From sequence record PQ310662.1: a DNA stretch of 64,000 nucleotides, one strand, 5' to 3'. Below are positions 34,263-47,996 of this stretch, piece by piece. The notes under the pieces are model-generated. The model saw nothing but the letters and a program-made list of their open reading frames with translations. It was not told where the DNA came from and made no database searches. Each line of letters starts with the position of its first letter. The stretch's first letter is position 1. Position numbers and translations under genes: made by a program. This DNA is from Escherichia phage Mimir124.

Positions 34263-34493
34263 TCTGGTAGGTGGCTCAGAAGCTGCTGCTAGGTGTGGTA
34301 GTGTTTATAGTCCTGATGCTACTACTGGTCAGAATTATAGACGTGTCGGCTCCATACATAGCTTTTATCATCACTGTCATTATCCTGTGGAAATGCAGTG
34401 GTAAACACGGTGGTGACAAGCCGCCAGAATAACAACAACCGAACCAGTGGATTGGAATACTCTCCCCAGTCCATTGGTTCAACCGGGGTTAAT

Positions 34494-34664
34494 ATGAACA
34501 AATTTACTATTCACTGGCTCAATGGAAAGGTTAGTTCTTTCATGGGTGAAGAACCTGCTGAAGGAAACAAAGCATTCCACATTGATTCAGAAGGCTGCAA
34601 AATCTTAATACCTTATGCTTGGTATAAAGATGGTGAAGTTGAAGCATTGAAAAAGAGTAGTTAA
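34494..34664 (+). CDS. hypothetical small protein (56 aa)
   Basis: ATG at 34494 within track ORF 34398..34664. Confidence 0.3.
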   Translation: MNKFTIHWLNGKVSSFMGEEPAEGNKAFHIDSEGCKILIPYAWYKDGEVEALKKSS

Positions 34665-35441
34665 TATCGTGAAGGGTTCTGTCAGAATCCTTTGAGATAG
34701 GAACTCCTATCATAACCTTTCTTAACTTAATCTTTGCCGTATGGCACTGACGCTAGGGGTGGCCCCCCATCCGTCAGACAGACTATTTTAAGAATGGGTT
34801 ATCTCAGAAAATGTAAAGCAACATTCGGGTTAATCAATGGCCTCTCCTATAGGGGCCATTTCTGAGTCTTAGGCTATATCCCAAAGGTTAGTATCTTTGG
34901 GATAAGGCTTCAGATCCCTTATCAAACTAGCTGCTCAATGTTGAGCATATTAATCAACCAAGCCCAATAAGGGGGCGGGAGTTTAATGCCGGTAAGCATA
35001 AGCCTATCCGTCTACAACATCGAACTGTTAGATCTTACATGCAATATAGGGTATAAAGGGAGGACTCGTCCCCTCCCTCCTATTATGAACTATCGGAGAG
35101 TGCATTAGTTGATTAGCTGTGGAAGGTAGGCCGATGTCCACGAGCATGGCCCAGAGCTAGTGTACTCCCCGATAGTTTTCGTAGCGATTATGCGGTTTTT
35201 TAGAAACGAACCAATAACATAAATGCAAACGAAGAAGCGTATCTGATGGTCGCCTAACAGCGTAACCTCAGTCAGGAGTGAGTCGTCCTGATTATCAAAC
35301 GACCGTGGAGTTCTCCCGTCCATGTATTAGAAACGGGGGACCAATTACCAGTTGCACGAGATGGCTTGACATGTTCAAGTTTGGACTAAGTGTGACACCG
35401 CTAGATTGGAGGGCTGCTGCGGTAAGCTATAGACTCCAACC

Positions 35442-35469
35442 GGAGGTTCGAATCCTTCACTGGTAACCA
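35442..35469 (+). ncRNA. tRNA 3' module (canonical T-arm GGAGG-TTCGAAT-CCTTC, acceptor 3' strand, discriminator A, encoded CCA); 5' half not resolved
   Basis: Exact GGTTCGAATCC T-loop motif; the only complementary 5' acceptor strand (taccagt) lies 121 nt upstream at 35346. Confidence 0.4.
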
Positions 35470-35545
35470 ATTCAAAGTAGCACTGTATCTTTAAATGTTT
35501 CCCGGCATTCAAAGAACCCACCGTGACAGTGCTACTCTGAATTGG
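35467..35545. repeat. 20-bp inverted repeat (19/20) flanking a 39-nt spacer
   Basis: ccaattcaaagtagcactgt (35467-35486) versus acagtgctactctgaattgg (35526-35545). Confidence 0.7.
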
Positions 35546-35642
35546 AAGAATTAAGACGGGTCTGGTTGAAGTAGATGGGGTTCGATTACCTCCGGTGGAG
35601 TAATCCACTAGCGTGCTTGGTGCACGAATAAGACTTAGTACT

Positions 35643-35667
35643 GGTGGTTCGATTCCATCCCCCGTTA
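35643..35667 (+). ncRNA. tRNA 3' module (T-arm GGTGG-TTCGATT-CCATC + acceptor 3' strand ccccgtt); candidate 5' strand gatgggg at 35574 (94-nt span)
   Basis: Canonical T-arm geometry; no standard D/anticodon arms found by hand in the intervening sequence. Confidence 0.35.
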
Positions 35668-35861
35668 CCTGAAGTCGCCAGGTACTTATGGCAAACGGGT
35701 AGTAACGAACTAGTCATTCGTCAAACGCCCACCCAATTATGAGTCAGCAAGAACGCCTTCACTTAAACTTAAACAAAAAAGCTTAACGCAATAATTATGT
35801 AGGGGTATGTAAGGATTGCGAAGAAGGAGCCAGTTAGAGCCTGGCATGACTCACCTATTAT

Positions 35862-35935
35862 GTCCACTTAGCTTAGACTGGGAAAGCAACCGACTAATAA
35901 TCGGAAGGTCACTGGTTCAAATCCAGTAGTGGATA
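35862..35935 (+). tRNA. tRNA (74 nt, canonical cloverleaf; anticodon loop CTAATAA, anticodon reads AAT in standard register)
   Basis: Acceptor gtccact/agtggat (7 bp), U8, D-stem gctt/aagc with GG in D-loop, anticodon stem ccga/tcgg, 5-nt variable loop, T-arm actgg-ttcaaat-ccagt, discriminator A. Confidence 0.6.
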
Positions 35936-36166
35936 CTTATTCAGCAGTAACATAGTCCTGATTGCATAGCACTCTAAAGACAACACTGGTAAGACAGTCC
36001 AGTGGCTGCTAATGTATTGTTATTCCCCTCGACGGGAATTTCGCTAGTGAAGGTAACACTTAAAAATCCAAACCTACGTCTTACTACTATCGGGCTATCA
36101 ACCCACGGTCGCTTAACCCTGTAGTGATAGTAGTTTGACGGCCTGCCTCGTTGACTGCGTTAAAGT

Positions 36167-36207
36167 CACTAAGTCCCTCGGAGCCGTCACTCTGGGGGAC
36201 TTTTTTA
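36167..36207 (+). terminator. rho-independent terminator closing the non-coding island
   Basis: aagtccc...gggggactt hairpin followed by tttttattt. Confidence 0.5.
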
Positions 36208-36208
36208 T

Positions 36209-36394
36209 TTGAGAACTGTTTATTGGACGATTCATATGATTGACCTAATCTTAACCCCGTATGCCTATGAGGTAACGGATAACCGAGGACGTAAGTCTTT
36301 GGTGTTTGCAGGTAGCGTAGCCTATAACAACGCAGTCATGTTTAAATACAAACTTAAACCACTTTATGAGGCTAATAATGGCAACAGTAAGTAA
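36209..36394 (+). CDS. hypothetical small protein (61 aa)
   Basis: ORF starting right after the terminator. Confidence 0.35.
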   Translation: MRTVYWTIHMIDLILTPYAYEVTDNRGRKSLVFAGSVAYNNAVMFKYKLKPLYEANNGNSK

Positions 36395-36758
36395 AGAATC
36401 AATCGAAGCTAAGATTAAGAGCGTTTACTATTTCAATGGTGCTGATGCAGTAAAGACTGCATTCGTTAACCCTTCTGCACTTCCGGCAGACGATTTGGCT
36501 AACCTGAGCCTGGTAACCTACTGTATTATCATCCTGGAAAACGGATTCAAAGTTGAAGGTGTATCTGCCTGTATTGACCCAACCATCTATGATGAACAAA
36601 AAGGCCGTCAGTATGCATATGAAAATGCATTCAATAAGATTTGGGAAATAGAGGGTTACCTGCTACGTCAGGCATTGCATGAGAAAGAGGAGACTACTAA
36701 GGCTCTGGCTTCCTTTGCAGAAAACAACACCTGTGATGGTGGTGGTTGCACCATTTAA
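36378..36758 (+). CDS. N4 gp49/Sf6 gene 66-like family protein
   Basis: LSLVTYCIIILENGFKVEGVSACIDPTIYDEQKGRQYAYENAFNKIWEIEGYLLRQ resembles the gp49-like family signature as I recall it; start set to ATG 36378. Confidence 0.45.
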   Translation: MATVSKESIEAKIKSVYYFNGADAVKTAFVNPSALPADDLANLSLVTYCIIILENGFKVEGVSACIDPTIYDEQKGRQYAYENAFNKIWEIEGYLLRQALHEKEETTKALASFAENNTCDGGGCTI

Positions 36759-36849: not shown

Positions 36850-37365
36850 GTGAGGGCTTTATCATTTGAGGTAGTTATGTCCGAAGAAATTAAAATTCAC
36901 TTCACCAACTACATTGGAACCAAGTGTGTAAATGGTTTCAAGATGAACAAGGAAACATATTGCAAACTTCGTGGCTGGGATGTGCCTGCTAATGAAGACC
37001 CATTAGAAGAAGGTTACTTAGTAGAGTACCCAGACTCTAAACCTAACCATGAGCAATTCCGTGGTTATATTAGCTGGTCACCAAAAGCTGCATTTGAGGC
37101 TGCATATTGTGACGTAACTAAGGGTTGTACTTTTGGTCACGCAGTAGAACTTTTGAAGTCTGGTTTTAGACTGTCCCGTAAAGGCTGGAATGGAAAAGGA
37201 ATGTATATCACCTTGGTACCGGGTAAATATTGGTCCATGGCTAAACATGAGAACTCCATTTGTGAGAAACGGGATTGGTTGGGCATCAAAACTGTTGATG
37301 ACCAGTTTATGCCTTGGGTTCCATCCCAATCGGATGTATTAGCTGAAGACTGGGTAATTCTGTAG
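36850..37365 (+). CDS. DUF2829-domain protein (Tad2-like C-terminal domain fused to an N-terminal domain)
   Basis: C-terminal FGHAVELLKSGFRLSRKGWNGKGMYITLVP...WVPSQSDVLAEDWVIL matches the DUF2829 signature (GWNGKxM...SQ.D.LAEDW). Confidence 0.5.
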   Translation: MRALSFEVVMSEEIKIHFTNYIGTKCVNGFKMNKETYCKLRGWDVPANEDPLEEGYLVEYPDSKPNHEQFRGYISWSPKAAFEAAYCDVTKGCTFGHAVELLKSGFRLSRKGWNGKGMYITLVPGKYWSMAKHENSICEKRDWLGIKTVDDQFMPWVPSQSDVLAEDWVIL

Positions 37366-37646: not shown

Positions 37647-40600
37647 TTAATTTACCAGGTTCATCCAAGGGTTAAGGTTGTGAGCACGAAGCCCCTGACC
37701 AAAGCCCCATGAGTAATCCAGACTACCCTTAGCAGCAATGCTAAAGATGTTGTCCTGAATAGGTAAGCCAACGTTACCAAACATGGTAGGAGTTGGAGCC
37801 AACATAGCCATAGCAGCATGCACTGGGTTATTACGAATCATGGACACTGCAACTTTTGCAGAACGAATCTTAAAGTTGTAGAACCACATTAAACCAACAC
37901 TTTCCATATACCCACGGAAGCGACCAGGTAAACGATCATAGTTAATGAACTCTTCCGTTACACGTCCTAGTGCTTCTTCACGAGTCTTACCTTTACGCTG
38001 GGTCAATTCATCATAGATGATTGCTTTAGCGATAAAGTCAGAGTACTCAACGGTCTTCTGGATACCCTGGAATAAAGCAGTATCCTTAGTGATAAGTGCA
38101 TAACGTCCGGCAGTACGTACTGACTTAGGTAGCTTATCTGCCAATTTACTCATGTACTCTTGAAGTTTACCTTCGGTAATAAGGATGTCATCACGACCGA
38201 TACCAGCGTCTGCAATTGAAGAGAACTCACCAGCTTCTAACAGAGGCCAGATACTCATACGCTTATGGCTATCAGTAATGGACTGAATCTCAGCCTTAAG
38301 TTTACGAATCTGGTTCGGGTTAGTAGCTGCACGTAATTCTGCTTCTGCATCTACCTGACGCAGACGAGACTTCAGGTACTGGTTAATCTCAGCAGTTTTC
38401 TGTGGAATGCTCTTAGCAATGTTCTTAACCGGTACGCCACGGGCAACCATCTGGTAAAGGTTAGCCAAGAAGTTAACAGCAGGTACGACTACTGACTTAA
38501 CTACAATCAGAGTCTTGGCTTCTTTAACTAAGTTCTGAACCAGGTTCTCACCACCCATAGTGTACTTATAAGCACGGTTGCCAAATACACCCAGCATAGC
38601 TTTCTTGAAGGTATCCAGGGTTTCCGGGGACCAACGAGAATTACCAGACCAGGCATCACCAACAGAAGCTGCACGATAACCAAGTGCATCATTCAGCATG
38701 TCACGACGCACCCACAGTTCGCCATCACCAAACAGGCTTTCTGCTTTCCGTCGAGTTTCACTGTTCATCAGCTTAAGTGCATCAGCAGTTACTGGGTCCA
38801 GTTTAGAACCAAGAAGGTTCACATACTGGGACTTGTTAGAGGCAGACATCTTTATGTCGTTCTCATACATACTATGCAGGTTCTCAATCAGCATATCGTT
38901 GAAACGCTGTGCCTTAGCCTCTTCCACCTGACGCCCACGCCATACACCAATTGCACGTGCAAGATGGTTCTCACCTTCAATATGCTTCAGCATGTTAGGG
39001 TCAATGGATTGCTCATAAGCAACTACATTACCTTTATCATCATATACAGGCAGGAGTGGTTCATTACCACGTTCACCACGAGCCAGTGCTTTAGTGATAC
39101 GGTCTACGGAAGGCTTGTCAGTGATACGACCTGCTACCATGGAACCCATCGTAAAGCCTGTACCCAGGTCTACACCACCAGCAGTATTACGAACGTTCTG
39201 TAGGATACCCTGTGAGAATGGAGCCTGTGCCTGTACTGGTGCAAAGTAATAACTACGTGCCGGACCACGGTTAGCAGAACTACCTTGATAAGTACCCAGA
39301 CGTACATAGGACTTCTCAATCAAATCAGCAAACTGACTATCTTCAGCAACAATCAGATTAACGCCCTGTTTAGTCTCACTAGGGATATGCCCTTTGTACT
39401 GGTTCAGGGTTGCACGCATATCAGATTTGGCTTTAGCCATTTCATCTTTACGCTGACCAACCAGATAAGAAGTAGCAAAGTCCATTCCCTCAACTTCTGA
39501 TTGAGCCAGTGAAGATAACATCTCACGGTCGGACTTATTCATTGCTTCCAGTGCATACAGGGTAATCAGTTTATCCAGTTGAGCTACATCTACAGTAGAA
39601 CGAGCAGCCTGACGTTCACCCAGCATACGAGAGATTGCAGTAGCATTACGCAGCAGGTTATTACCGACTGTACCATTAATCATGTACTGAGCCAGTTGCT
39701 TAGATTTACGACTAATAAGAGGCCAGTTACGACCAGCTTGTTTTTGCAAATCTGCTTCCAGCTTATTCACTTCACGGTCAACAATCTTCTGGTCAGTCAG
39801 CAGGTCACGGATTTCAGCCAGAGACATAGTGTCACGCAGAACAGCTAAGTCAGTTTTACCCATACCAGTGTGCATTGCTTTCCACTCATCTTTAGTCAGC
39901 TTACGGCTGAACTTAGATGCGATAGTGGTGGGCAGGTGTTCACGAAATTGTTGACGGTCTGCTTGTACCTGTGCACGAACTGCTTTAATTAAATCATATA
40001 CAGAAGCATTACTCTTAGTACGACCAGTTAGGTCATTAACTAAGTCATGGAAAGGTTGCCATACCTTGCCTTGGTTCATTGCAGCCATAACACCTTCAGC
40101 TACGATTACACCATTCTTCTCTGTAGCAATGGCAGCTACCAGTTGTGCAGCATGAGCAGCACCTTTAACCAACGGGTTCTTGGTATTAGCTGCAACTTCA
40201 CGAGCACTTTCTAAAGCACGGGTGGACAGTGCATCAATAGAATCCACCAGATACTGGTTAGCACGGTCGATAGCATTACCACTAGGTATAGCAACGGAAT
40301 CATAAAATGACTGTGCATTGAGGCTGGTCTGCATGATTGTCTGAGCCAGTGCATCCGTCCCTTCCTGCACATTGGTGGCTTTGGTATCACCTGTTACACG
40401 AGCATTCAGGCTAGACATTGCAGCAGTACCGATGTTAGTCAGCATTGCATCAATGGTATTACCAGATTTCTTATCTGCTTTCATAACAGGAATGTTAGCC
40501 AGTACATTACGTACTTCTTCACTAACCATTGCCAGACCAACAAAGGTAGGCAATAAGGAAGAACGACCCTGTGCATCAAACTCAATGTTGTTAGCACCCA

Positions 40601-43600
40601 TGATGGTATCAAACTTCTGTTGAGCATAGTAACGGTCAGCAGGGTTAGTGCTATCAGGGTCAGCCATGAATGCTTCAACGGTCAGGTTCTTAGTGACGTG
40701 TGCGTAGTATTCCTGTGCACGAGAAAGAGCAGCCGGACTAATAGCAGCTTCAGTAGCCAAAGCAGCAACAATGTTAGTGAACAGTCGCTGTTCCTGCATA
40801 TTCATAGTGAAGCCATGAGCCTGAACATCACGAGTTACTTTAGTTGCATTCACTACTGCATCAGAGAACTTACCCTTACGAATTACTTGCTGTACCGGTT
40901 CTGAACCAATGTAGTTAGTAATCAGCTTATCAAAGGTCTGCCCCAACTCTTCCAGACGGGTATTGTCACCGTATGCTTTGTTATGGAACAGAGTAGTGTC
41001 TTTGGCTACAGCAGCAGTAGGAGCCTGCCCACGCATAACTACAGAAGAGTTAAACAGTAAGCCAGAGAACATATCATCTGCGTTAGCAGGGGCTTTCTTA
41101 CGACCAAATACCAGACGTTTGATTGCTTCATATACAGCCTGAACCATGGCCTTAAGTGCAGTGGTTTTCTTCTGCTTACCAATCAATTCACGGTTGGTTA
41201 AACCCCATGCCATGTACTCATTCAGTGCAGCAGCTTTAGCCATTGCTGGTTCAATAAAGCCATTAGACAAGTGACCATTAATGGTATTGAGTGCATCAGC
41301 ATATGCTTCACGTACTGCCGGGGATTCATCCTTAACATCCAGAGTACGGAACTGGTTCATCAGGTCTTCAATATTCTGGACTGCTTCATTAGAAGTACCT
41401 TCATAGTGAGCCAGTACAGATTCAAAAGTAGAAGCATGTACCAATTCATGAACCAGAGTCTCTAAGGAAGGAGTAACTAAGTAGATGGTCTTATCTTCAA
41501 AGTTAGTCCAGCCATATGCATTACCAGCTTCAGCAGCTTCAATATCTTCCGGTGCTGGGCGAGTAATGTTCTTCTCAATAGCATAAGCATCCAGTTGAGC
41601 AGGAGTACCATAAACAACCTTGTAGTCTTTAGCAGCAAGGGATTTCTGTACTTCTTTCAATACTGCTTGCTGTTCTGGGGACATCTCTTTAGCCAGCTTA
41701 GTGATAGCAGTATTGGACAGCAGACGTACACCGGACTTCAGTACACGACCTACCTTCTCCATTGCTGGTACTTCTTTCACTGGTTCTGCTTTAGCAGCAC
41801 GTACTGCATCACGACGCTTATTTAATTCAGCATCAAACAGCTCGTTCAGCTTAGCTACTTGTTGGTCTACAGTCAGACCTTCCAGAGAAATTTTACCGTT
41901 GTTCACATAAGGAGCACCTACAGCAGCCATCTGGTCAACAGTAGTCTGTACCTGGTTCATTACTTTGTGGCGAATATCTACACCCAGAGCAATGTTACGC
42001 AGATTACGTTCAATCTGTTCAGCACCAATACGTAACAGGTCATCAGTAGCACCTTCACGTTGGTCATATTCCAGAGCAGATTTAGCGATAGCCTGTTTGG
42101 TTTCATCAGACAGTTTGCTGAAGTCTACGTTCTTCATGAACTTAGCGAAGGAGTCATAAACATTCTTGATAGGGTTTCCTTGCCAAGAAGTATATACAGC
42201 CTCGTTAGCTTTACGACTTGCATCAGTAATGTCATTAATACCAATGTTCATACCATCAAAGATTTTCAGGGTATTCTTCGGAGCACCCTTCATAGTAGAA
42301 AGAGTCTGCATCATCATGCCATCACCAGTACCGATGGTCATAAATGGAATACCTGCAACACCTGCCTGTGAAGGAGCATAGATGCTCATTGGCACACGCA
42401 TACGGTCATCTAAGTTGGTAGCCAGTACTTGGTTAGCAACATCAGTGTTCTCACTACCAGCAATGTAGAAAGTCTGTGAGCCAGTCTCAATCATTGGAGC
42501 CAGCGGAGATAAGCTATTCTGAATTTCATTCAGTTCTTTCTGCGTTAAGAAATCACCTTTCTTCCATGTTGAGTCTTTTTCTTTTTCTGCAAGTTTAGCC
42601 TGTACTGCCTGTTGGAACATATCCTGCAATACCAGAGACTGAATCTGGGTAGCCTTCTGTAAGTTCTCAGTAGAATGCATCAGACCTTCACCAACAGTAT
42701 TTCGAATACCAGTACGCATTGGTTCAACGAACAGGTGAAGCATGTTCTCTTGTAAGTTCTTCAGGGCATTACCAGATACAGTAAACTTCTGTGGGTCTAA
42801 CTTACCAGTCAGAGCACCTTCTACCTGCTGAATAGATAACTCACCCTTACGCATAACTGGAACATTGCCAGTCAGTGCTTCCATAGAAGTAAGGAAAGTA
42901 TCCAGCATAGCCTGAGCATCAGCCTCAGATGCAGCCTCCTTACCAAACATTGCCATAGCCGGGGAAATACTAGGGTCAGCAGCACGAGCTTGCAGAACGT
43001 CGCTGAAGCGTTCGTAGATGGTATCAGTAATTGCACTAACCATCTTGCCAGCAATACCACGAGCACCAGAACCATAGATGGTAATGGTTAGTGGGTTTTT
43101 AGCGATACCACGTTTCAGGTCCAGTGTACCGTCTTCATTCAGGTTAAAGTCTTTGATGAACAGGTCCATTAACTTCTGGAGATGATTCATCTGGCTCATA
43201 ACAGGAACGTTGTTACGGTAAGTACTACGTAATTCACCAAGTGCTTGTTGCAGACCATTAGTAGATGCTTCATACAGGTCAACACTGTCATCCTGTGAGC
43301 GATGCTCGTTCATAGTCTTACCAGCTTTACCGAAGAACAAACCACCCTTAGCAGTATTCTTAATCCAGTCTGGAGTGAACTTACCACCGGTCATTAATAC
43401 CATTGCGTTGATTGGGCCATTGGTTACACCATCAGCTTCAACGTACAGTGGGGTATTAAAATTGGCACGGTCATCGCTATTCAGGTAACGGGCATATTCC
43501 ATCAGAGCCATGAGAGCTACGAATGATTTATCACCACCCAAAGAGGTCTTAAGAATATCCACTGCATCAACTGGTAAGTAACCAGACTTATCAAACTCAA

Positions 43601-46600
43601 CCATCATATCAACAGCAGGTTTCAGGTTACCTTCCAGAGCTTTGGTCAGCTTTTCAGACATAGCTTCACGGGACATGTTATGTACCTTGATGCCTAATGC
43701 CTGAGCCAGACCTAACTGAAAGTCAGAGAACGCTTGGCTGTTTTCATTACTCAAGTCAATAGTAGAGAAGGTTGGCAGAATTGCTTCACGAACCAGCTTA
43801 CTGGATTGTGGGTTATTCTTACCAAGCATCTGCATACGACCTACACGGGTCATGTTGTAACCATAGTGAATAGGAGTATCCAGTCCATTCTCCTGTTCCT
43901 GAACCTGATTGATTACCCCAAACAAGGAATCGTATGCCATAGACACGGACAGGTTCTTACATTCCAATGATTTAGCAGTGTTTACGTTCAGTAGTTCAGG
44001 ATTAATCGTACCAGCACCCATCAGTTCCAGAATGTTGTCACGACCCAATGCTTCATAGAAATTAACCATCGGCATGTGTACACGGAACTCAGTAGCCTGT
44101 TCTGCTTTAAGAGCAGCTTTCTGTTCTGGAGTATTCTTGACAGCCGGGTTACGTAACTGAGTTTGAGCCACGGAAGGAATATCATCCCCGAAGTACATTT
44201 TCTCTTCCGGTTCTACGAGGACAGCTTCCTCAATAGCAGTAGGGAAATTGTTAATGGCATCGTTATCATCCAGCTTCTCAATGGTGTACAGACCTACAGT
44301 CTTATTGGAGGCTGGGTCAATTTCAGACACATCCAGCATAGACTCTTTAACTTCACCCATCTCAATAAAGGAAGACAGAATCTCTGTAGCCATTGCCATT
44401 GGGATACCCTTGGTATAACCCAGTGGTGCATTAGGATTACGATTCAAACCCCAATAGGATTCAATCTTTTGAGCCAGTGAGTTAGTAGCTTCAACCAGGG
44501 TCTGAGCATTCTCGAAGTCAGCCAGAATACCTTCAGGTAACAGGGATGCTTCTACACCAGTAATAGCAGCTACATCTTTCATGTCTTTAATGGCAGCATT
44601 CTGTGTAGCAGTCAGTCGCCATTGCAAACCAGCAAGTACAGCAGTCTCTAGCAACTGGTCATTGAACTTAAAGGTGTCACCATCCTTCTCAACGATATTC
44701 AGCAGTTTACCACCCACCCAACGGTTAGCTTCAGTACCTTCTGCAAAACGTTTACCAACATTCTTGTTAGCAAGGAACTTAGCTAGACGGTCAGAAAGAG
44801 TAGTCTTCAGGGTTTCACCAAAATCAAACAAGTCCTGATAACGCTTAATCACATCACTTGTGAGAGCGTTATTTTCTTTTTGAGTAAATGCTTCAAAACG
44901 AGCAACAGAAGACAGTGCTTTCTTAACATCAGTCAAAGGAGACTCAGAACCAATGGTACGAGACTTAGGTTCTTCCGGTAGGGTAAATGCTTTCAGGAAC
45001 TGGTTCGGTGTCTTTTCATTGTTATAGACAGGGAACACTGTTTCCATTTCTGTTTTGGTTTCGACTACTTCCTGGGTAGTATCTACTGTTTCAGACTTAG
45101 TAGTAGAGACTTCTTCTGTTTTTGGGCTAGTCTCCATAGTAGGAGCAGTCTTATTTTCTACCACTGGTTTAGCTTTAGGCTGTACAGTAGTAGTGTCCTC
45201 TTGCACTGGTGCAGGAGTTTCATCAACCTGATTCACTGGTTCATTGGTCTGTTGGGATTGAGCAGCGTCAAGATTGCCCTGACGGAACTCTTTAACTACC
45301 TGGGCAGCAGGCTTGTCCAGACGTGAATCCAATGGGGTAACTTTCACATGAGAAACATTAAGCTCCGGGTAAGCCGTAGCAAGTGCGTTAGCAATATCAG
45401 CTACGGTTTTGGCCTCCAGTCCTACTTGCTGGGCAAACTTAACAGACTTGGTATCGTAAGGATTGACACCGAGTCCAGTACGACTACGTACCCATTCACG
45501 GGAAGGCGAGAGAGCCTGATAATGAACAGACTTATTCTTATCCGCATTCCCAGAAATCAGATGCTCATTCAACGCTCCGACCTTATTCTGCATGTGCTGG
45601 GCGAACTTCATAAAGTCGCTCAGATAAGCGGAGGCCAAATCGAAGTTACCAGAGTTATACGCAGAACGAATGCGTTTCGCATGTTGCAACGCAGAGTACT
45701 GTCCTTCGTTAGAACGAGACTCATCGGTTTTAATTTGTTTACTAACAATGTCTTGAGGACGTAAGCCCAGTTCTTCTGCTTTAGCGTCGAACTCACGTGC
45801 ACCCTGTAACAAGGCAGCAGCAGATTGCAGGGCAGCACGTTGATGATTCCCCAGTGTAATCTTACCTTCACTTGCATGTTTCAGAACCATGTTCACTGAA
45901 TCTGCATCCAGTACTTCTGGGGATACATCAGCAGCCATAGCAATGTTGTTTGCTTGGGCTTGATTAGCTTCTTCAGTAGCTTTCAGCTTACCTGCTTCAG
46001 CCTGTTCCTGAATCATGGAATGGATAGCACGGTATGCACGGAGTACTTTAGGTGTATTCTGTACGTTAGCCATCAGGCCAGAGAACTGGTCTACGATAGT
46101 AGCAGCAGGGGAACCTTGTTCCAGATTAGCCAGAGCACCTGGGTCACGGTTAATGAAGCTATCCATAGACATAATGTTGTCATACATCTGGATTGCAGCT
46201 TCCATTTGAACGTTAGGATCTTCAGCAGTATTAACCAGGTCAGCCATCTTCTGAATAGCTTCTACACGGTTAGTGGAACCAGAAACAGCTTCACGGATTA
46301 CCAGGTTAGCTTGTTCCAACTCTACTGGGTCGAACTTCATTGCCTGAGTTAAGTCAGCAGCATACTGAGTAGCAGCAGCTTTCTCTTCTGGAGTGATATC
46401 CATTGCATCTACTGCTTCCTGTACAGTTGCTTGTGCCTGCTCTGCCTGAGCAGCAGCTTCCTGTGCAGCAGCGTTAACCGTAGCATCAGCTACAGGGGAT
46501 GCTTGTTCATTACGCTTAGCAACTTCTTCCCCACGTTGAACCAGGATGTTAGTAAGAGGAGATGCAGCTTTTGCTAATGTTTTACCAACCAGAGAAGCAC

Positions 46601-47996
46601 CAGCCAGAGTAGTACGTAGAGCAGGACCAGCAGAAGCACCAACTGCTTTAACAGTTGCACCTGGAGCTTGAGCAACCCCAGCACTACCGAAGCCATAAAG
46701 TGCACCAAGACCTGCTTGCTCACCAACCCCTTTGAGAGTGTCACGGGATGCATCAACATTTTCCTTGATTGCACGGTTCTGGGCATACTGACCGAAGCCG
46801 GATTGAATACCCTCTTCTACAGTTTCACGGAGCATGTTAGAACCAGCACCAGCCAGTGAACCTACCTTAAGTGGGTTAAGTTCAAAACGAGATACCAGTG
46901 GGCCGGTAGCAGCAGCAACTGGAGCAGTTAAGCCAGCAGCAATAATACCTGTTTCAGATGCAGTCTGACGACGTGCTTCATCAGGGGATAATCCATCAGC
47001 AATATGTTGTTGGTAAACAGGAGACTTACTTGCCAAATCTTGATGGGACATCTTCATGATTTCAGAAGCAGTCTGTTGGTATGCACCACCAGCTTCCATA
47101 CCACCAATTGCAATAGCAGGTGCAGCAACACGACCAGCAGACAATGCAACCTGTGCAGGGCGTGAACCTAACTCAGCAGCTAAGGTAATACCCTTAACAG
47201 CTTTATCACCACCTACCATTACTTTACCAAGTGCAGATACACCACGGATAAGTGGACCACCAGTAAAGAGGGAACCAACACCTTCACTCAGTCCGTCGGA
47301 AGCAGCCATACCATTATCAAGTGTATTAGCAACAGAATCGAAAGCATCACGACCAATGCGAGACAAGGAGGCAACCAAATCGCTCTCCCCATTTTTGACG
47401 TCTTGTTCATAGAGTTTCTGGTTCTTTTGAGCAGAAATCTGGTTCTGATTCTGAACAACTTTACGGGTAGCATTCAGTGCATCAGATTGTAAATTGTGTA
47501 CACCTTCATTCAACCAATCCATCCCGGAAGCAATGGATGCCCCGGCATTATCATTGACCAGACCTGTGCCAAGAGCAGCAATGCCCCCAAGGGTATTAGC
47601 AACACCAAGACCAACACCAGAAAGAGTATCGCCAAATGCTTCTGCGTTAGTACGTTGTTTAGATAAGTCCTGACGTACAACATCAGCAGCATTAGCTCGG
47701 CTATTAAGAATTTGTAGACCTTGCTCATTACCGTACTTATTAATGATTTCTAATGGAGAGGCTTGAGTGAAATCTGCCTGAAGTGAACCCGGTTCGAATG
47801 CACCGATTCCAAGATTACCTACTCGTCCAGTCTGGAGATTGTAAGCGTTCTCTGGGGTTAATTGGAAAGGGCTTTGCCCTTGTGCAGCTTGCTTCTGAGA
47901 GGTTGCAGTAGAGACATCGACTTGCTTAGCAGTAGTGATGCTGTCTGCGAAACCTGCCAGACGGTCAAATGTTGACATAGCATGTTTCCTGTTCAA
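37647..47996 (-). CDS. virion-encapsidated giant RNA polymerase (N4 vRNAP-like)
   Basis: Single 3449-aa ORF (N4 vRNAP is about 3500 aa); first gene of the leftward late module; co-occurs with a split RNAP II. Confidence 0.75.
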   Translation of the reverse strand: MNRKHAMSTFDRLAGFADSITTAKQVDVSTATSQKQAAQGQSPFQLTPENAYNLQTGRVGNLGIGAFEPGSLQADFTQASPLEIINKYGNEQGLQILNSRANAADVVRQDLSKQRTNAEAFGDTLSGVGLGVANTLGGIAALGTGLVNDNAGASIASGMDWLNEGVHNLQSDALNATRKVVQNQNQISAQKNQKLYEQDVKNGESDLVASLSRIGRDAFDSVANTLDNGMAASDGLSEGVGSLFTGGPLIRGVSALGKVMVGGDKAVKGITLAAELGSRPAQVALSAGRVAAPAIAIGGMEAGGAYQQTASEIMKMSHQDLASKSPVYQQHIADGLSPDEARRQTASETGIIAAGLTAPVAAATGPLVSRFELNPLKVGSLAGAGSNMLRETVEEGIQSGFGQYAQNRAIKENVDASRDTLKGVGEQAGLGALYGFGSAGVAQAPGATVKAVGASAGPALRTTLAGASLVGKTLAKAASPLTNILVQRGEEVAKRNEQASPVADATVNAAAQEAAAQAEQAQATVQEAVDAMDITPEEKAAATQYAADLTQAMKFDPVELEQANLVIREAVSGSTNRVEAIQKMADLVNTAEDPNVQMEAAIQMYDNIMSMDSFINRDPGALANLEQGSPAATIVDQFSGLMANVQNTPKVLRAYRAIHSMIQEQAEAGKLKATEEANQAQANNIAMAADVSPEVLDADSVNMVLKHASEGKITLGNHQRAALQSAAALLQGAREFDAKAEELGLRPQDIVSKQIKTDESRSNEGQYSALQHAKRIRSAYNSGNFDLASAYLSDFMKFAQHMQNKVGALNEHLISGNADKNKSVHYQALSPSREWVRSRTGLGVNPYDTKSVKFAQQVGLEAKTVADIANALATAYPELNVSHVKVTPLDSRLDKPAAQVVKEFRQGNLDAAQSQQTNEPVNQVDETPAPVQEDTTTVQPKAKPVVENKTAPTMETSPKTEEVSTTKSETVDTTQEVVETKTEMETVFPVYNNEKTPNQFLKAFTLPEEPKSRTIGSESPLTDVKKALSSVARFEAFTQKENNALTSDVIKRYQDLFDFGETLKTTLSDRLAKFLANKNVGKRFAEGTEANRWVGGKLLNIVEKDGDTFKFNDQLLETAVLAGLQWRLTATQNAAIKDMKDVAAITGVEASLLPEGILADFENAQTLVEATNSLAQKIESYWGLNRNPNAPLGYTKGIPMAMATEILSSFIEMGEVKESMLDVSEIDPASNKTVGLYTIEKLDDNDAINNFPTAIEEAVLVEPEEKMYFGDDIPSVAQTQLRNPAVKNTPEQKAALKAEQATEFRVHMPMVNFYEALGRDNILELMGAGTINPELLNVNTAKSLECKNLSVSMAYDSLFGVINQVQEQENGLDTPIHYGYNMTRVGRMQMLGKNNPQSSKLVREAILPTFSTIDLSNENSQAFSDFQLGLAQALGIKVHNMSREAMSEKLTKALEGNLKPAVDMMVEFDKSGYLPVDAVDILKTSLGGDKSFVALMALMEYARYLNSDDRANFNTPLYVEADGVTNGPINAMVLMTGGKFTPDWIKNTAKGGLFFGKAGKTMNEHRSQDDSVDLYEASTNGLQQALGELRSTYRNNVPVMSQMNHLQKLMDLFIKDFNLNEDGTLDLKRGIAKNPLTITIYGSGARGIAGKMVSAITDTIYERFSDVLQARAADPSISPAMAMFGKEAASEADAQAMLDTFLTSMEALTGNVPVMRKGELSIQQVEGALTGKLDPQKFTVSGNALKNLQENMLHLFVEPMRTGIRNTVGEGLMHSTENLQKATQIQSLVLQDMFQQAVQAKLAEKEKDSTWKKGDFLTQKELNEIQNSLSPLAPMIETGSQTFYIAGSENTDVANQVLATNLDDRMRVPMSIYAPSQAGVAGIPFMTIGTGDGMMMQTLSTMKGAPKNTLKIFDGMNIGINDITDASRKANEAVYTSWQGNPIKNVYDSFAKFMKNVDFSKLSDETKQAIAKSALEYDQREGATDDLLRIGAEQIERNLRNIALGVDIRHKVMNQVQTTVDQMAAVGAPYVNNGKISLEGLTVDQQVAKLNELFDAELNKRRDAVRAAKAEPVKEVPAMEKVGRVLKSGVRLLSNTAITKLAKEMSPEQQAVLKEVQKSLAAKDYKVVYGTPAQLDAYAIEKNITRPAPEDIEAAEAGNAYGWTNFEDKTIYLVTPSLETLVHELVHASTFESVLAHYEGTSNEAVQNIEDLMNQFRTLDVKDESPAVREAYADALNTINGHLSNGFIEPAMAKAAALNEYMAWGLTNRELIGKQKKTTALKAMVQAVYEAIKRLVFGRKKAPANADDMFSGLLFNSSVVMRGQAPTAAVAKDTTLFHNKAYGDNTRLEELGQTFDKLITNYIGSEPVQQVIRKGKFSDAVVNATKVTRDVQAHGFTMNMQEQRLFTNIVAALATEAAISPAALSRAQEYYAHVTKNLTVEAFMADPDSTNPADRYYAQQKFDTIMGANNIEFDAQGRSSLLPTFVGLAMVSEEVRNVLANIPVMKADKKSGNTIDAMLTNIGTAAMSSLNARVTGDTKATNVQEGTDALAQTIMQTSLNAQSFYDSVAIPSGNAIDRANQYLVDSIDALSTRALESAREVAANTKNPLVKGAAHAAQLVAAIATEKNGVIVAEGVMAAMNQGKVWQPFHDLVNDLTGRTKSNASVYDLIKAVRAQVQADRQQFREHLPTTIASKFSRKLTKDEWKAMHTGMGKTDLAVLRDTMSLAEIRDLLTDQKIVDREVNKLEADLQKQAGRNWPLISRKSKQLAQYMINGTVGNNLLRNATAISRMLGERQAARSTVDVAQLDKLITLYALEAMNKSDREMLSSLAQSEVEGMDFATSYLVGQRKDEMAKAKSDMRATLNQYKGHIPSETKQGVNLIVAEDSQFADLIEKSYVRLGTYQGSSANRGPARSYYFAPVQAQAPFSQGILQNVRNTAGGVDLGTGFTMGSMVAGRITDKPSVDRITKALARGERGNEPLLPVYDDKGNVVAYEQSIDPNMLKHIEGENHLARAIGVWRGRQVEEAKAQRFNDMLIENLHSMYENDIKMSASNKSQYVNLLGSKLDPVTADALKLMNSETRRKAESLFGDGELWVRRDMLNDALGYRAASVGDAWSGNSRWSPETLDTFKKAMLGVFGNRAYKYTMGGENLVQNLVKEAKTLIVVKSVVVPAVNFLANLYQMVARGVPVKNIAKSIPQKTAEINQYLKSRLRQVDAEAELRAATNPNQIRKLKAEIQSITDSHKRMSIWPLLEAGEFSSIADAGIGRDDILITEGKLQEYMSKLADKLPKSVRTAGRYALITKDTALFQGIQKTVEYSDFIAKAIIYDELTQRKGKTREEALGRVTEEFINYDRLPGRFRGYMESVGLMWFYNFKIRSAKVAVSMIRNNPVHAAMAMLAPTPTMFGNVGLPIQDNIFSIAAKGSLDYSWGFGQGLRAHNLNPWMNLVN

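What the first reader, a model, noticed from the sequence alone, without database searches (positions are those of the whole stretch)
34836..35090. Cluster of stable hairpins at the start of the non-coding island
aatggcc...ggccatt (34836-34860), tatcccaaag-gttagtat-ctttgggata (10-bp stem, 34878-34905) and agggagg-actcgtcc-cctccct (35058-35079) are not followed by T-runs and do not flank ORFs. With the tRNA modules, they suggest the island encodes structured RNA(s) or a DNA-level signal such as an origin.
Basis: seen in the sequence. Interest (0 to 1): 0.4.

Follow-up and report, generated by a model that had tools for sequence, protein, structure and literature searches.

The report
Hairpin-rich RNA module in phage island
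The three hairpins are real and conserved, and they sit at the start of an unannotated cluster of small structured RNA genes in an N4-like coliphage; its modules, including a tmRNA-like tag RNA, are shared with unrelated phages, and nothing suggests a replication origin.

Summary
The window is an N4-like Gamaleyavirus. All three hairpins exist; two are 1 nt off the stated coordinates. The 266-nt stretch folds far better than shuffles (z -4.2).

Comparison with 35 distinct relatives splits the region in two:
- Hairpins 1 and 2 lie in a Gamaleyavirus-only segment (34703-34894).
- Hairpin 3 is the inner stem of a two-tier terminal hairpin (35046-35083). It closes a ~190-nt multi-hairpin domain, "unit K" (34895-35086), shared at about 80% identity with unrelated Kuraviruses. 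Several of its stems show compensatory changes.

The whole island (34665-36210) has no sigma-70 promoter and no iterons. It has one strong + strand terminator, and it runs in the same direction as the flanking genes.

Downstream of unit K lie:
- ~20-bp "long-stem" modules, one of which also exists in phage lambda just after tR';
- a tmRNA-like tag module (ANEEAYLMVA-stop plus covarying pseudoknots), which no tool or record annotates and which occurs in 473 of 5426 complete E. coli genomes;
- a tRNA-like element ending in ACCA;
- tRNA-Ile.

Best reading: these are folded RNA domains of one processed multi-RNA transcript, with trans function unknown. The origin reading is not supported. A 20-40-codon ORF overlapping hairpin 3 remains a minor rival.

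The parts
34672..34711 (+). Entry hairpins just after the stop codon of the upstream small ORF: AAGGGUUCU-GUC-AGAAUCCUU, then GAUAGG-AACU-CCUAUC. In Kuraviruses the homologue of this piece is joined directly to unit K.
   Evidence: Sequence; alignment with Kuraviruses L004, L131 and L132.
34703..34894 (+). 'Unit G', a segment found only in Gamaleyaviruses. It holds hairpin 0 (34747-34777), the enclosing helix CAGAAA/UUUCUG, hairpin 1 (34836-34860) and the 5' arm and loop of hairpin 2. It is absent from Kuraviruses, and similar 13-nt sequences (CUUUGAGAUAGGA / CUUUGGGAUAAGG) sit at the two junctions.
   Evidence: Hairpin 1 shows U.G<->U-A changes in 4 variants and one break. Hairpin 2 has one double compensatory change (L169, U-A to C-G), and 4 sequences carry a C.A mismatch.
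34836..34860 (+). Hairpin 1 of the finding: 10-bp stem, 5-6-nt loop.
   Evidence: More stable on the + strand (-13.6) than on the - strand (-10.2).
34877..34904 (+). Hairpin 2 of the finding: 10-bp stem, extendable to 34867-34914. Its 3' arm shares 4 nt with helix P1 of unit K, so the full-length forms of the two exclude each other.
   Evidence: (I3). + strand -24.0 against - strand -18.3.
34895..35086 (+). 'Unit K', a ~190-nt multi-hairpin domain shared by Gamaleyaviruses and Kuraviruses. Its parts are: P1 34901-34907/34917-34923; H3 34932-34947; H4 34962-34976; H6 34990-35011; an almost invariant 19-mer UGUUAGRUCUUACRUGYAA at 35026-35044 (3 transition sites); and terminal hairpin H5 35046-35083. 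Two candidate long-range pairings are CUAGC 34927-34931 with GUUAG 35027-35031, and P1 loop AGAU 34912-34915 with AUCU 35032-35035.
   Evidence: Alignment A1 of 35 distinct sequences. P1 has two covarying pairs (AU 20 / GC 15; GC 19 / AU 15). The loop-linker pair is U.G 20, U-A 14, C-G 1 and is never mismatched. H6 has 19 sequence variants, nearly all of which still fold into a hairpin. H3 is replaced by a different hairpin in the SU10 type, and H4 is absent in the G7C type. H5 is present in all variants.
35046..35083 (+). Two-tier terminal hairpin of unit K: outer stem AUAGG/CCUAU, a 5' internal loop, and inner stem AGGGAGG/CCUCCCU. The inner stem is hairpin 3 of the finding (35057-35078).
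   Evidence: the same architecture appears in every variant although the outer 5' arm has moved and the inner stem has shifted register (GGGAGG/CCUCCC, GAGGGA/UCCCUC). In several Kuraviruses it is followed by UAUUUUAUU.
34986..35108 (+). Small ORF of 40 codons (PHROG 37481; annotated in PhAPEC7 as 53p1), overlapping H6 through H5. Coding status is doubtful.
35088..35177 (+). Long-stem module LS1: a 21-bp stem with a conserved A.C (elsewhere U.U) mismatch. It encloses an H-type pseudoknot: S1 35119-35123/35137-35141, S2 35129-35132/35148-35151.
   Evidence: (I2). The basal stem covaries (CGG/CCG, CAG/UUG, UAA/UUA; CCAUCGG/CCGAUGG). Pseudoknot S1 covaries (GUGGA/UCCAC, GUGAA/UUCAC). The cargo is 87% identical to a segment in Ackermannviridae.
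35171..35343 (+). tmRNA-like tag module. It comprises a leader, AUAAAU, resume codon GCA at 35225, the tag ANEEAYLMVA (35225-35254), stop UAA 35255-35257 in a hairpin loop, pseudoknot PKa 35272-35303, pseudoknot PKb 35304-35339, then ACCA 35340-35343.
   Evidence: Weak Rfam tmRNA hits. At least 120 viral contigs keep the same 10-codon frame. PKa covaries (CG 53 / UA 42; GC 46 / AU 40 / CG 10).
35346..35469 (+). tRNA-like element: acceptor UACCAGU/ACUGGUA, an internal hairpin and pseudoknot, T-arm GGAGG-UUCGAAU-CCUUC, and an encoded ACCA.
   Evidence: The acceptor covaries in L087, L058 and L031. ARAGORN and Rfam do not call it.
35467..35545 (+). Long-stem module LS2: 20-nt arms, 95% complementary. 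Its 5' arm begins with the CCA of the tRNA-like element.
   Evidence: I1.
35553..35680 (+). Degenerate or unusual tRNA-like region with two T-arm-like repeats (35570-35593 and 35637-35660).
   Evidence: D1. Weak tRNA-Sec hit (19 bits, E 1.3). Relatives annotate 'tRNA-OTHER' nearby.
35862..35936 (+). tRNA-Ile (anticodon AAU).
36077..36140 (+). Third long hairpin, LS3: 15-nt arms, 87% complementary.
   Evidence: I5.
36171..36210 (+). Strong intrinsic terminator (13-bp stem followed by TTTTTATTT) that closes the island.
   Evidence: Annotated as a terminator in PhAPEC7 and G7C.

Best explanation
The hairpins are RNA-level folding units on the + strand. They form the 5' third of a ~1.55-kb cluster of small structured RNA genes that has no promoter of its own and ends at one terminator (34665-36210). 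The host genome is an N4-like Gamaleyavirus, and the cluster is read through from the upstream gp44-gp47 genes.

Hairpins 1 and 2 belong to a lineage-specific leader segment. Hairpin 3 is the closing hairpin of an autonomous ~190-nt multi-hairpin domain, unit K, that has moved horizontally between Gamaleyaviruses and Kuraviruses.

Proposed mechanism (inferred, not shown): the island is made as one precursor and then cut into stable pieces. RNase P would cut at the 5' ends of the tRNA-like elements. A double-strand-specific nuclease such as RNase III, or RNase E, would cut at or beside the ~20-bp long-stem modules. The products would be unit K, the tmRNA-like tag RNA ending in ACCA, the tRNA-like RNA and tRNA-Ile. 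The compact hairpins define domain boundaries and protect the released pieces from exonucleases.

Shown here: existence, conservation, some covariation, modular exchange between phages, orientation, and the absence of promoter or origin features. Inferred: transcription, processing, and any action of unit K in trans, which remains unknown.
For: - The region folds much better than shuffles.
- Thirty-five distinct homologues keep the hairpins.
- P1 has two covarying pairs; the covariation score of 0.165 beats all 500 shuffles and every slid register.
- H6 keeps its pairing through 19 sequence variants, and H3 is replaced by another hairpin in one lineage.
- Hairpin 1 changes only U.G<->U-A in 4 variants; hairpin 2 has one double compensatory change.
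- Unit K lies in non-coding gaps, co-oriented with the flanking ORFs, in both Gamaleyaviruses and Kuraviruses.
- The island has no sigma-70-type promoter above chance and one strong + strand terminator at 36171-36210.
- tRNA-Ile, the tag frame and the ACCA-ending tRNA-like element are all on the + strand.
- Module boundaries coincide with stem bases. G7C lacks exactly 35090-35540, and Kuraviruses lack 34703-34894.
- The LS1 stem covaries strongly.
- LS2 pairs with the CCA end of the tRNA-like element, as a processing stalk would.
Against: - There are no expression data, so transcription and processing are inferred.
- Folding energy does not single out the + strand. Unit K folds better as the - strand in 33 of 35 variants (mean -57.6 against -52.5 kcal/mol), and hairpin 0, H6, LS2 and LS3 also favour the - strand.
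- Hairpins 1, 2 and 3 are nearly invariant, so their own covariation support is thin. The two covarying P1 pairs probably reflect a single split between the two phage groups.
- Four sequences carry a C.A mismatch in hairpin 2.
- The region from H6 to H5 is overlapped by an ORF. Its indels among four of the five length classes (34, 40, 40 and 43 nt from ATG to the 19-mer, my count from the sequences) are multiples of three.
- No Rfam family matches, so no function can be borrowed.
Confidence: 0.55

Rival explanations
1. Unit K is a small 'moron-like' protein-coding cassette. In this reading P1, H3 and H4 form a structured 5' UTR. A 20-40-codon ORF starts at ATG 34986, preceded in this phage by GGGAG. 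Hairpin 3 (H5) is its terminator or 3' stabiliser.
For: - The ORF is annotated in PhAPEC7 and has its own PHROG family.
- A core peptide ..IE.L(G/D)LTCNI(G/N) is kept in four of five sequence types, including SU10-type Kuraviruses that start with GTG after GGGAG.
- The distances from ATG to the 19-mer are 34, 40, 40 and 43 nt, all in the same frame (my count from the sequences).
- Three of the four variable sites in or just after the 19-mer fall on third codon positions.
- In several Kuraviruses H5 is followed by UAUUUUAUU.
Against: - The frame is broken (41 nt) in NC-B-type Kuraviruses even though the nucleotides are conserved.
- ORF length ranges from 3 to over 70 codons and the C-terminus is unrelated between types.
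- The N-terminal codons change freely while the H6 pairing is kept.
- The Shine-Dalgarno-like GGGAG is deleted in the G7C type.
- Leu codons UUA and CUU are invariant at the nucleotide level across two phage groups.
- A search of 5.8 billion proteins found only 6 near-identical hits (at least 83% identity) and no diverged family.
Confidence: 0.17
2. The hairpins act at the DNA level. They could be a replication origin or a cruciform signal. Alternatively they could be conserved inverted-repeat linkers that promote recombination and shuffle cassettes between phages, like the promoter-early stem-loops of T4-type phages.
For: - Module boundaries fall at stems, and similar 13-nt sequences flank the Kuravirus deletion.
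- Both strands fold about equally well.
- Long-stem arms are conserved at sequence level around variable cargo in lambda-like, T1-like, N4-like and Vi1-like phages.
Against: - There are no iterons and no AT-rich tract, and the skew inflection lies elsewhere.
- Conserved G.U pairs and U.G<->U-A changes in hairpins 1 and 2 and in LS1 would be mismatches in a DNA cruciform.
- Compensatory changes keep pairing rather than sequence.
- Orientation relative to transcription is conserved in two unrelated genomes.
Confidence: 0.1
3. The hairpins are decaying remnants of tRNA or other RNA genes in a fast-turnover tRNA island. On this reading they have no function and survive only because the relatives diverged recently.
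For: - tRNA content differs between close relatives (Thr, Cys, Val, Ile, 'OTHER').
- The window holds degenerate T-arm repeats.
- Unit G is nearly invariant among Gamaleyaviruses, so it carries little information.
Against: - Unit K is kept at about 80% identity in a different phage subfamily, with structure-preserving changes.
- Nothing in 34836-35090 resembles a tRNA.
- The almost invariant 19-mer and the P1 loop point to purifying selection.
Confidence: 0.1
4. Unit K works as an antisense (- strand) RNA.
For: The - strand of unit K folds more stably in 33 of 35 variants.
Against: - No - strand promoter stands out.
- Late leftward transcription should stop at the bidirectional terminator just after the virion RNA polymerase gene, as annotated in relatives.
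- Hairpins 1 and 2 and LS1 favour the + strand.
- All identifiable RNA genes in the island are on the + strand.
Confidence: 0.05

Closest known systems
Stable non-tRNA small RNAs encoded inside phage tRNA clusters (T4 'species 1 and 2' RNAs), from my own knowledge
   Same: Small structured RNAs of unknown function that are co-transcribed with phage tRNAs and released by processing of a polycistronic precursor.
   Different: There is no sequence or Rfam relationship. Here the modules are exchanged between unrelated phage families, and one of them carries a tmRNA-like tag.
GOLLD and ROOL large ornate phage/prophage RNAs (Rfam families), from my own knowledge
   Same: Large, hairpin-rich non-coding regions of phages that lie next to tRNA genes, with variable peripheral helices around conserved cores.
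   Different: No Rfam family in the library matched this region at E<=10 apart from the chance-level hits listed. The present island is a chain of separable ~80-190-nt modules rather than one large fold, and its hosts are Enterobacterales.
tmRNA (standard, permuted/two-piece, and TLD-only forms; PMC11915505, PMC4131195)
   Same: The adjacent module has a resume-codon context AUAAAU|GCA and a 10-codon tag of the form AN(D/E)(D/E/N)xxLxxA, with most variants ending in AA or VA. Its stop codon sits in a hairpin loop and two covarying H-type pseudoknots follow. A tRNA-like element with a T-arm and ACCA comes next.
   Different: The tag lies 5' of a closed tRNA-like domain instead of inside it. The acceptor stem has no G3:U70. 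Many phages carry the tag module with no tRNA-like partner. ARAGORN finds nothing and Rfam scores are 23-34 bits against a gathering score of 47. The hairpins of the finding are not part of this module.
RNase III processing stalks (rRNA operon stems, T7 early-mRNA R sites), from my own knowledge
   Same: Helices of about 20 bp with a fixed internal mismatch that enclose or abut functional RNAs (LS1, LS2, LS3 and the extended hairpin 2).
   Different: Cleavage has not been tested. The long-stem arms are conserved in sequence across phage families, which plain RNase III sites do not need to be.
Promoter-early stem-loop cassettes of T4-type phages (mobile regulatory cassettes), from my own knowledge
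   Same: Repeated stem-loops at the borders of exchangeable genome modules.
   Different: No promoter is attached here, and the stems show RNA-type covariation.

Membership tests
Replication origin | Iterons or tandem direct repeats, or initiator boxes | tested here: not met
   Only scattered two-copy repeats and no tandem family in 34600-36400.
Replication origin | AT-rich unwinding region, or a strand-skew switch at the site | tested here: not met
   GC is 0.40-0.49 across the island, like the flanks. The cumulative skew turns at about 37.5 kb.
Intrinsic terminator | GC-rich stem immediately followed by a U-run | tested here: not met
   The scan reports no terminator at any of the three hairpins. 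The only strong + strand site is 36171-36202. In some Kuraviruses the homologue of hairpin 3 is followed by UAUUUUAUU.
tRNA | Cloverleaf detectable by ARAGORN or Rfam RF00005 | tested here: not met
   Only 35862-35936 is called. Nothing is called in 34836-35090.
Any Rfam 15 family | Score at or above the gathering threshold | tested here: not met
   No hit in 34660-35180 at gathering. In E-value mode there are only chance-level hits: mir-9413 (E 4.5) and a plastid intron on the - strand.
N4 virion-RNA-polymerase promoter hairpin | DNA hairpin with a 5-7-bp stem and a 3-nt loop at early promoters near the left genome end (from my own knowledge of N4) | tested here: not met
   The loops are 5, 8 and 8 nt. 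The site lies mid-genome, at the end of the rightward gene block. Hairpin 3 is conserved in Kuraviruses, which belong to another subfamily.
tmRNA (considered for the adjacent module 35171-35469, not for the hairpins) | Tag reading frame starting at a GCA resume codon, with the stop codon in a hairpin | tested here: met
   A 10-codon frame is conserved in about 125 loci with at least 8 peptide variants. The stop-hairpin stem changes between CGC/GCG (window), UGC/GCA (Pylas) and GCC/GGC (most others); I read this directly from the aligned sequences, and the column counts for this hairpin were not clean.
tmRNA | Pseudoknots flanking the tag | tested here: met
   PKa S1 and S2 and PKb S1 and S2 show multiple compensatory pair types.
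tmRNA | tRNA-like domain formed by the 5' and 3' ends of the same RNA, enclosing the tag | tested here: not met
   The acceptor 5' strand (35346-35352) lies downstream of the tag. Many phages have no T-arm within 1 kb.
tmRNA | G3:U70 alanine identity pair in the acceptor stem | tested here: not met
   The acceptor is UACCAGU/ACUGGUA (type 1) or UCCAGGA/UCCUGGA (type 2); position 3:70 is C-G.
tmRNA | Detection by ARAGORN or by Rfam at the gathering score | tested here: not met
   ARAGORN finds none. Rfam tmRNA_permuted scores 23.1-33.7 bits against 47.
RNase III processing stalk | About two helical turns of dsRNA | tested here: met
   LS1 has 21-nt arms, LS2 20-nt arms, and the extended hairpin 2 20-nt arms.
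RNase III processing stalk | Cleavage by RNase III in vivo or in vitro | not testable with these tools
   No expression or end-mapping data are available.
Small protein gene (PHROG 37481) | Reading frame conserved across homologues | tested here: inconclusive
   The frame is kept in four sequence types and broken in NC-B-type Kuraviruses. The C-terminus is not conserved, and only 6 near-identical proteins were found in 5.8 billion.

The most novel reading that the evidence does not exclude
The island is one instance of an undescribed, modular phage RNA system. Its interchangeable cargo RNAs include unit K with the hairpins of this finding, a conserved pseudoknot, tRNA-like domains, and a tmRNA-derived tag RNA that lacks a canonical tRNA-like domain. 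The cargoes are strung between conserved ~20-bp long-stem processing stalks.

The same stalks and tag module occur downstream of the late promoter in lambdoid prophages (the stalk is in lambda itself) and in T1-like, Vi1-like and N4-like phages. The tag RNA, alone or together with the ACCA-ending tRNA-like RNA, would let phages take over or block ribosome rescue late in infection. That could counter defence systems that cut tRNA or mRNA.
Probability: 0.3. Interest if true: 0.85.

Novelty: new member of a known kind. Interest (0 to 1): 0.55.

Why it matters
About 1.5 kb of this phage, and comparable gaps in hundreds of other enterobacterial phages and prophages, are annotated as empty. In fact they hold conserved structured RNAs.

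For the hairpins themselves the gain is modest. They become a defined candidate RNA motif (unit K) shared by two unrelated coliphage groups, with testable helices.

The wider context matters more. The same island carries a tmRNA-like tag module that no annotation tool used here reports. It is present in 473 of 5426 complete E. coli genomes and in several phage families. It sits among long-stem modules, one of which is also found in phage lambda's late leader.

If these RNAs are expressed and processed, they open a testable question: how do phages handle ribosome stalling, and how do they exchange RNA modules? The island also lies 640 bp upstream of a Tad2-like anti-defence gene, which hints that it is an accessory or counter-defence hotspot.

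Tried and rejected
- **Rfam.** Gathering and E-value modes gave nothing for the hairpins.
- **ARAGORN.** It was run on the window and on six relatives. It found only canonical tRNAs and no tmRNA.
- **Strand assignment by folding energy.** Inconclusive. The - strand of unit K is on average more stable, so I do not use energy as evidence for the + strand.
- **A dedicated promoter at the conserved 5' boundary TAATATCGTG.** The -35-like hexamers upstream are neither conserved nor well spaced in the two phage groups, and the scan finds no site above chance. Rejected.
- **Targets of the almost invariant 19-mer.** No second copy or complement in the window with up to 3 mismatches. No hit in E. coli genomes at E<=10, though that search cannot see short seeds. 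An 8-bp complementarity to E. coli ssrA that I noticed from memory is within chance.
- **A 5' acceptor strand upstream of the tag, which would make a standard or permuted tmRNA.** None was found. The T-arm plus ACCA inside the Pylas long stem belongs to a separate tRNA-like cargo.
- **Protein homologues of the 40-codon ORF.** Only 6 near-identical hits.
- **Literature.** Searches for phage tmRNA-like elements in N4-like or lambdoid phages found no description. The known phage tmRNAs named in the 2014 survey I read are in mycobacteriophages and Bacillus phage G (PMC4131195). I could not inspect the 79 phage entries of the 2025 database.
- **Column-based pair counting for H3, H6 and the outer H5 stem on the MAFFT alignment.** Abandoned because indels put these stems out of register. 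Per-variant folding was used instead.
Full report
**What the window is**

Megablast of 34400-36400 against GenBank phages finds 85 records. Nearly all are Gamaleyavirus (the G7C / PhAPEC5 / PhAPEC7 group of N4-like Schitoviridae) at 90-97% identity. The 3449-codon ORF on the - strand at 37647-47996 is the virion RNA polymerase.

The finding lies at the start of a gap without convincing ORFs, about 34665-36365. The gap sits between small hypothetical genes downstream of the gp45-gp47 homologues and the gp48/gp49 homologues, all on the + strand. ARAGORN and Rfam at gathering thresholds see only tRNA-Ile at 35862-35936.

**The observation**

The three inverted repeats are present.
- Hairpin 1 is at 34836-34860 and actually has 10 pairs.
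- Hairpins 2 and 3 are at 34877-34904 and 35057-35078, 1 nt left of the stated coordinates.

Window 34830-35095 folds at -84.1 kcal/mol against -66.9 +/- 4.1 for shuffles (z -4.18, 0 of 200). The larger stretch 34660-35480 gives z -7.26. None of the hairpins is followed by a T-run.

**Comparative dissection**

A sensitive blastn of 34690-35480 hits 394 phage records. Different pieces hit different, unrelated phage groups, always in unannotated gaps.

I collected homologues from three sources: GenBank records; IMG/VR and metagenome contigs found through a nearly invariant 19-mer; and the loci already fetched. This gave 35 distinct sequences. Two units emerge.

*Unit G (34703-34894).* It holds hairpin 0, hairpin 1 and most of hairpin 2. 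It is present in all Gamaleyaviruses and absent from Kuraviruses. In Kuraviruses the homologue of 34662-34702 is joined directly to the homologue of 34895 onwards, across similar 13-nt sequences.

Within Gamaleyaviruses unit G is nearly invariant.
- Hairpin 1 shows only U.G<->U-A changes, in 4 variants, plus one break.
- Hairpin 2 shows one double compensatory change (U-A to C-G in L169), several loop changes, and a C.A mismatch in 4 sequences.

*Unit K (34895-35086).* It is shared at about 80% identity with Kuraviruses (SU10, NC-B, phiEco32-type contigs).
- Helix P1 (34901-34907 / 34917-34923) has two covarying pairs: AU 20 / GC 15 and GC 19 / AU 15. These probably trace to a single split between the two phage groups.
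- For the tested helices together, 98.7% of cells pair. The covariation score of 0.165 exceeds all 500 shuffles and all slid registers.
- H6 (34990-35011) has 19 sequence variants, and nearly all of them still fold into a hairpin.
- H3 changes G-C to A-U or G.U and is replaced by an unrelated hairpin in SU10-type phages. H4 is missing in the G7C type.
- Hairpin 3 of the finding is the inner stem of a two-tier hairpin (35046-35083). This hairpin is present in every variant, even where the outer arm has moved or the inner stem has shifted register.
- Between the helices lie almost invariant single strands: the P1 loop CUUCAGAUC, AACUAAC, and the 19-mer UGUUAGRUCUUACRUGYAA.
- Minimum-free-energy folds of most variants close the middle of the unit with CUAAC/GUUAG.
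- The P1 loop can pair with the 19-mer. Pair 34915:35032 is U-A, U.G or C-G and is never mismatched.

These last two long-range contacts are proposals. Their columns hardly vary, so the data neither confirm nor contradict them.

**The rest of the island**

Directly after unit K comes a 21-bp long stem, LS1 (35088-35177). It encloses an H-type pseudoknot. Both its basal stem and the pseudoknot stem covary among relatives.

Two more long hairpins follow: LS2 (35467-35545) and LS3 (36077-36140). LS stems resemble a motif that recurs in many phages: 5' CACAACAGGUAAGAGCAUUG ... CAGUGCUCUUUCCGUUGUG 3'. The motif encloses variable cargo. One copy is in phage lambda itself, at about 44787-44862, immediately after the tR' terminator.

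Between LS1 and LS2 lies a module that Rfam's E-value mode weakly assigns to tmRNA families (23 bits, E 0.037 and 0.014). It reads AUAAAU|GCA AAC GAA GAA GCG UAU CUG AUG GUC GCC UAA, which encodes ANEEAYLMVA-stop.
- A pattern scan found at least 120 viral contigs with the same arrangement. Every one has a 10-codon frame: ANDDVVLMAA, ANDDLMLMAA, ANDEQFLAVA, ANEEMYLAVA, ANDNTFLAVA and others.
- The two downstream pseudoknots covary (for example CG 53 / UA 42; GC 46 / AU 40 / CG 10).
- The module occurs in 473 of 5426 complete E. coli genomes with no RefSeq feature under it. In O26:H11 strain 11368 it lies between the Q-type antiterminator gene and the holin gene of a lambdoid prophage.
- In the window it ends ..ACGGGGG-ACCA.
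- It is followed at once by a tRNA-like element (35346-35469). Its acceptor stem covaries (UACCAGU/ACUGGUA, UACUGGU/ACCAGUA, UAUCAGU/ACUGAUA, UCCAGGA/UCCUGGA), and it has a T-arm and an encoded ACCA.

This is tmRNA-like, but it fails the definition of the family.
- The tag is outside the tRNA-like domain.
- There is no G3:U70 pair.
- Many carriers have no tRNA-like partner.
- Neither ARAGORN nor Rfam reaches threshold.

The 2014 survey I could read names phage tmRNAs only in mycobacteriophages and Bacillus phage G (PMC4131195). I could not inspect the 79 phage entries of the 2025 database (PMC11915505). I found no description of this module.

**RNA or DNA, and which strand**

*Against an origin.* There are no iterons and there is no AT-rich dip. 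The skew inflection is at the convergent-transcription point near 37.5 kb.

*For a + strand RNA.*
- The island has no sigma-70-type promoter above chance and one strong + strand terminator at 36171-36210.
- Every recognisable RNA gene is on the + strand.
- Unit K keeps the same orientation relative to the neighbouring ORFs in Gamaleyaviruses and in Kuraviruses.
- Hairpins 1 and 2 and LS1 contain G.U pairs, and they fold better on the + strand.

*Against over-confidence.* Unit K as a whole folds better as the - strand in 33 of 35 variants. Thermodynamics therefore does not settle the strand. There are no expression data.

**Coding rival**

An ATG at 34986 opens a 40-codon ORF (PHROG 37481) that runs through H6 to H5.

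Points in its favour:
- a core peptide is shared by four sequence types;
- the indels among those types are multiples of three (my count);
- variation in and just after the 19-mer is mostly at third codon positions.

Points against it:
- NC-B-type Kuraviruses are frameshifted;
- the length ranges from 3 to more than 70 codons;
- the N-terminal codons change while the H6 pairing is kept;
- the Shine-Dalgarno-like sequence is deleted in the G7C type;
- a search of 5.8 billion proteins returns only six near-identical hits.

I keep this rival at about 0.17.

**Most likely mechanism**

The hairpins are folding units of a long + strand transcript that is read through from the upstream genes and ends at 36210.

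By analogy with tRNA and rRNA operons, I infer that the transcript is cut at the tRNA-like 5' ends and at or near the ~20-bp long stems. In support, LS2 pairs with the CCA end of the tRNA-like element, and the junction ACCAAUU recurs in relatives. Cutting would release unit K, the tag RNA, the tRNA-like RNA and tRNA-Ile. The compact hairpins would act as domain boundaries and exonuclease blocks.

Unit K is conserved across two phage groups and has nearly invariant loops, which suggests it has a function of its own. Nothing here says what that function is.

**Verdict**

Its 'structured RNA' reading is supported, and its 'origin' reading is not.

The hairpin cluster itself is a new, uncharacterised member of a familiar kind: phage small structured RNAs in tRNA islands. 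The more surprising element is next door. It is an unannotated, widespread tmRNA-like tag module embedded in a modular long-stem architecture that reaches as far as phage lambda.

Noticed in passing
window 35171-35343 (resume codon 35225; stop 35255-35257): A tmRNA-like tag module encoding ANEEAYLMVA-stop, followed by two covarying pseudoknots. ARAGORN, Rfam at gathering score, RefSeq and the phage records I inspected do not annotate it. The same module is in at least 120 IMG/VR contigs and in 473 of 5426 complete E. coli genomes.
   Followed up: partly
window 35346-35469: A tRNA-like element with a covarying acceptor stem, an internal pseudoknot, a T-arm and an encoded ACCA. It has no G3:U70 pair, and tRNA finders do not call it.
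   Followed up: partly
window 35088-35177, 35467-35545, 36077-36140; L178 388-463 (lambda 44787-44862): Long-stem modules recur in many phages: ~20-bp helices with a fixed mismatch that enclose variable cargo. A clear copy sits in phage lambda immediately after the tR' terminator. I know of no assigned function.
   Followed up: partly
window 35109-35156: The pseudoknot cargo of LS1 is 87% identical to a segment in many Ackermannviridae (Vi1-like phages) and is also present in Kuraviruses. Its function is unknown.
   Followed up: partly
L002 4197-4304 (G7C); L006 about 1418-1524 (Pylas): In G7C and in Klebsiella phage Pylas the corresponding long stem carries a different cargo. It is a tRNA-like fold with acceptor CUUGGCU/AGCCAGG, an arm with a conserved 18-nt loop, and T-arm UUAGG-UUCAACU-CCUAA. 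G7C lacks window 35090-35540 altogether.
   Followed up: partly
window 36850-37362 (+): This ORF has a Tad2-like (Thoeris anti-defense 2, PF11195) domain at E 8e-24, so the RNA island lies 640 bp upstream of an anti-defence gene.
   Followed up: no
window 34601-34618 and 36247-36264: An 18-nt direct repeat (83% identity) brackets the island. Both copies lie in small ORFs (34494-34664 and about 36237-36395) that share an IL.PYA[WY] peptide, so the ORFs may be paralogues flanking an inserted RNA cassette.
   Followed up: no
window 34982-34999 and 35495-35512: There is an 18-nt complementarity (83%) between the H6 region of unit K and the cargo of LS2. It could be a long-range RNA contact or chance.
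   Followed up: no
window 35553-35680: Two T-arm-like repeats lie 67 nt apart inside what looks like a degenerate or insert-bearing tRNA-like element (acceptor GACGGG / CCCGUU, then ACC).
   Followed up: no
L001 1-1014 (PhAPEC7) and L002 3095-3592 (G7C): Relatives carry mobile elements close to the island: a putative intron with an ORF in the gp44 homologue of PhAPEC7, and an HNH homing endonuclease gene just upstream of the island in G7C.
   Followed up: no
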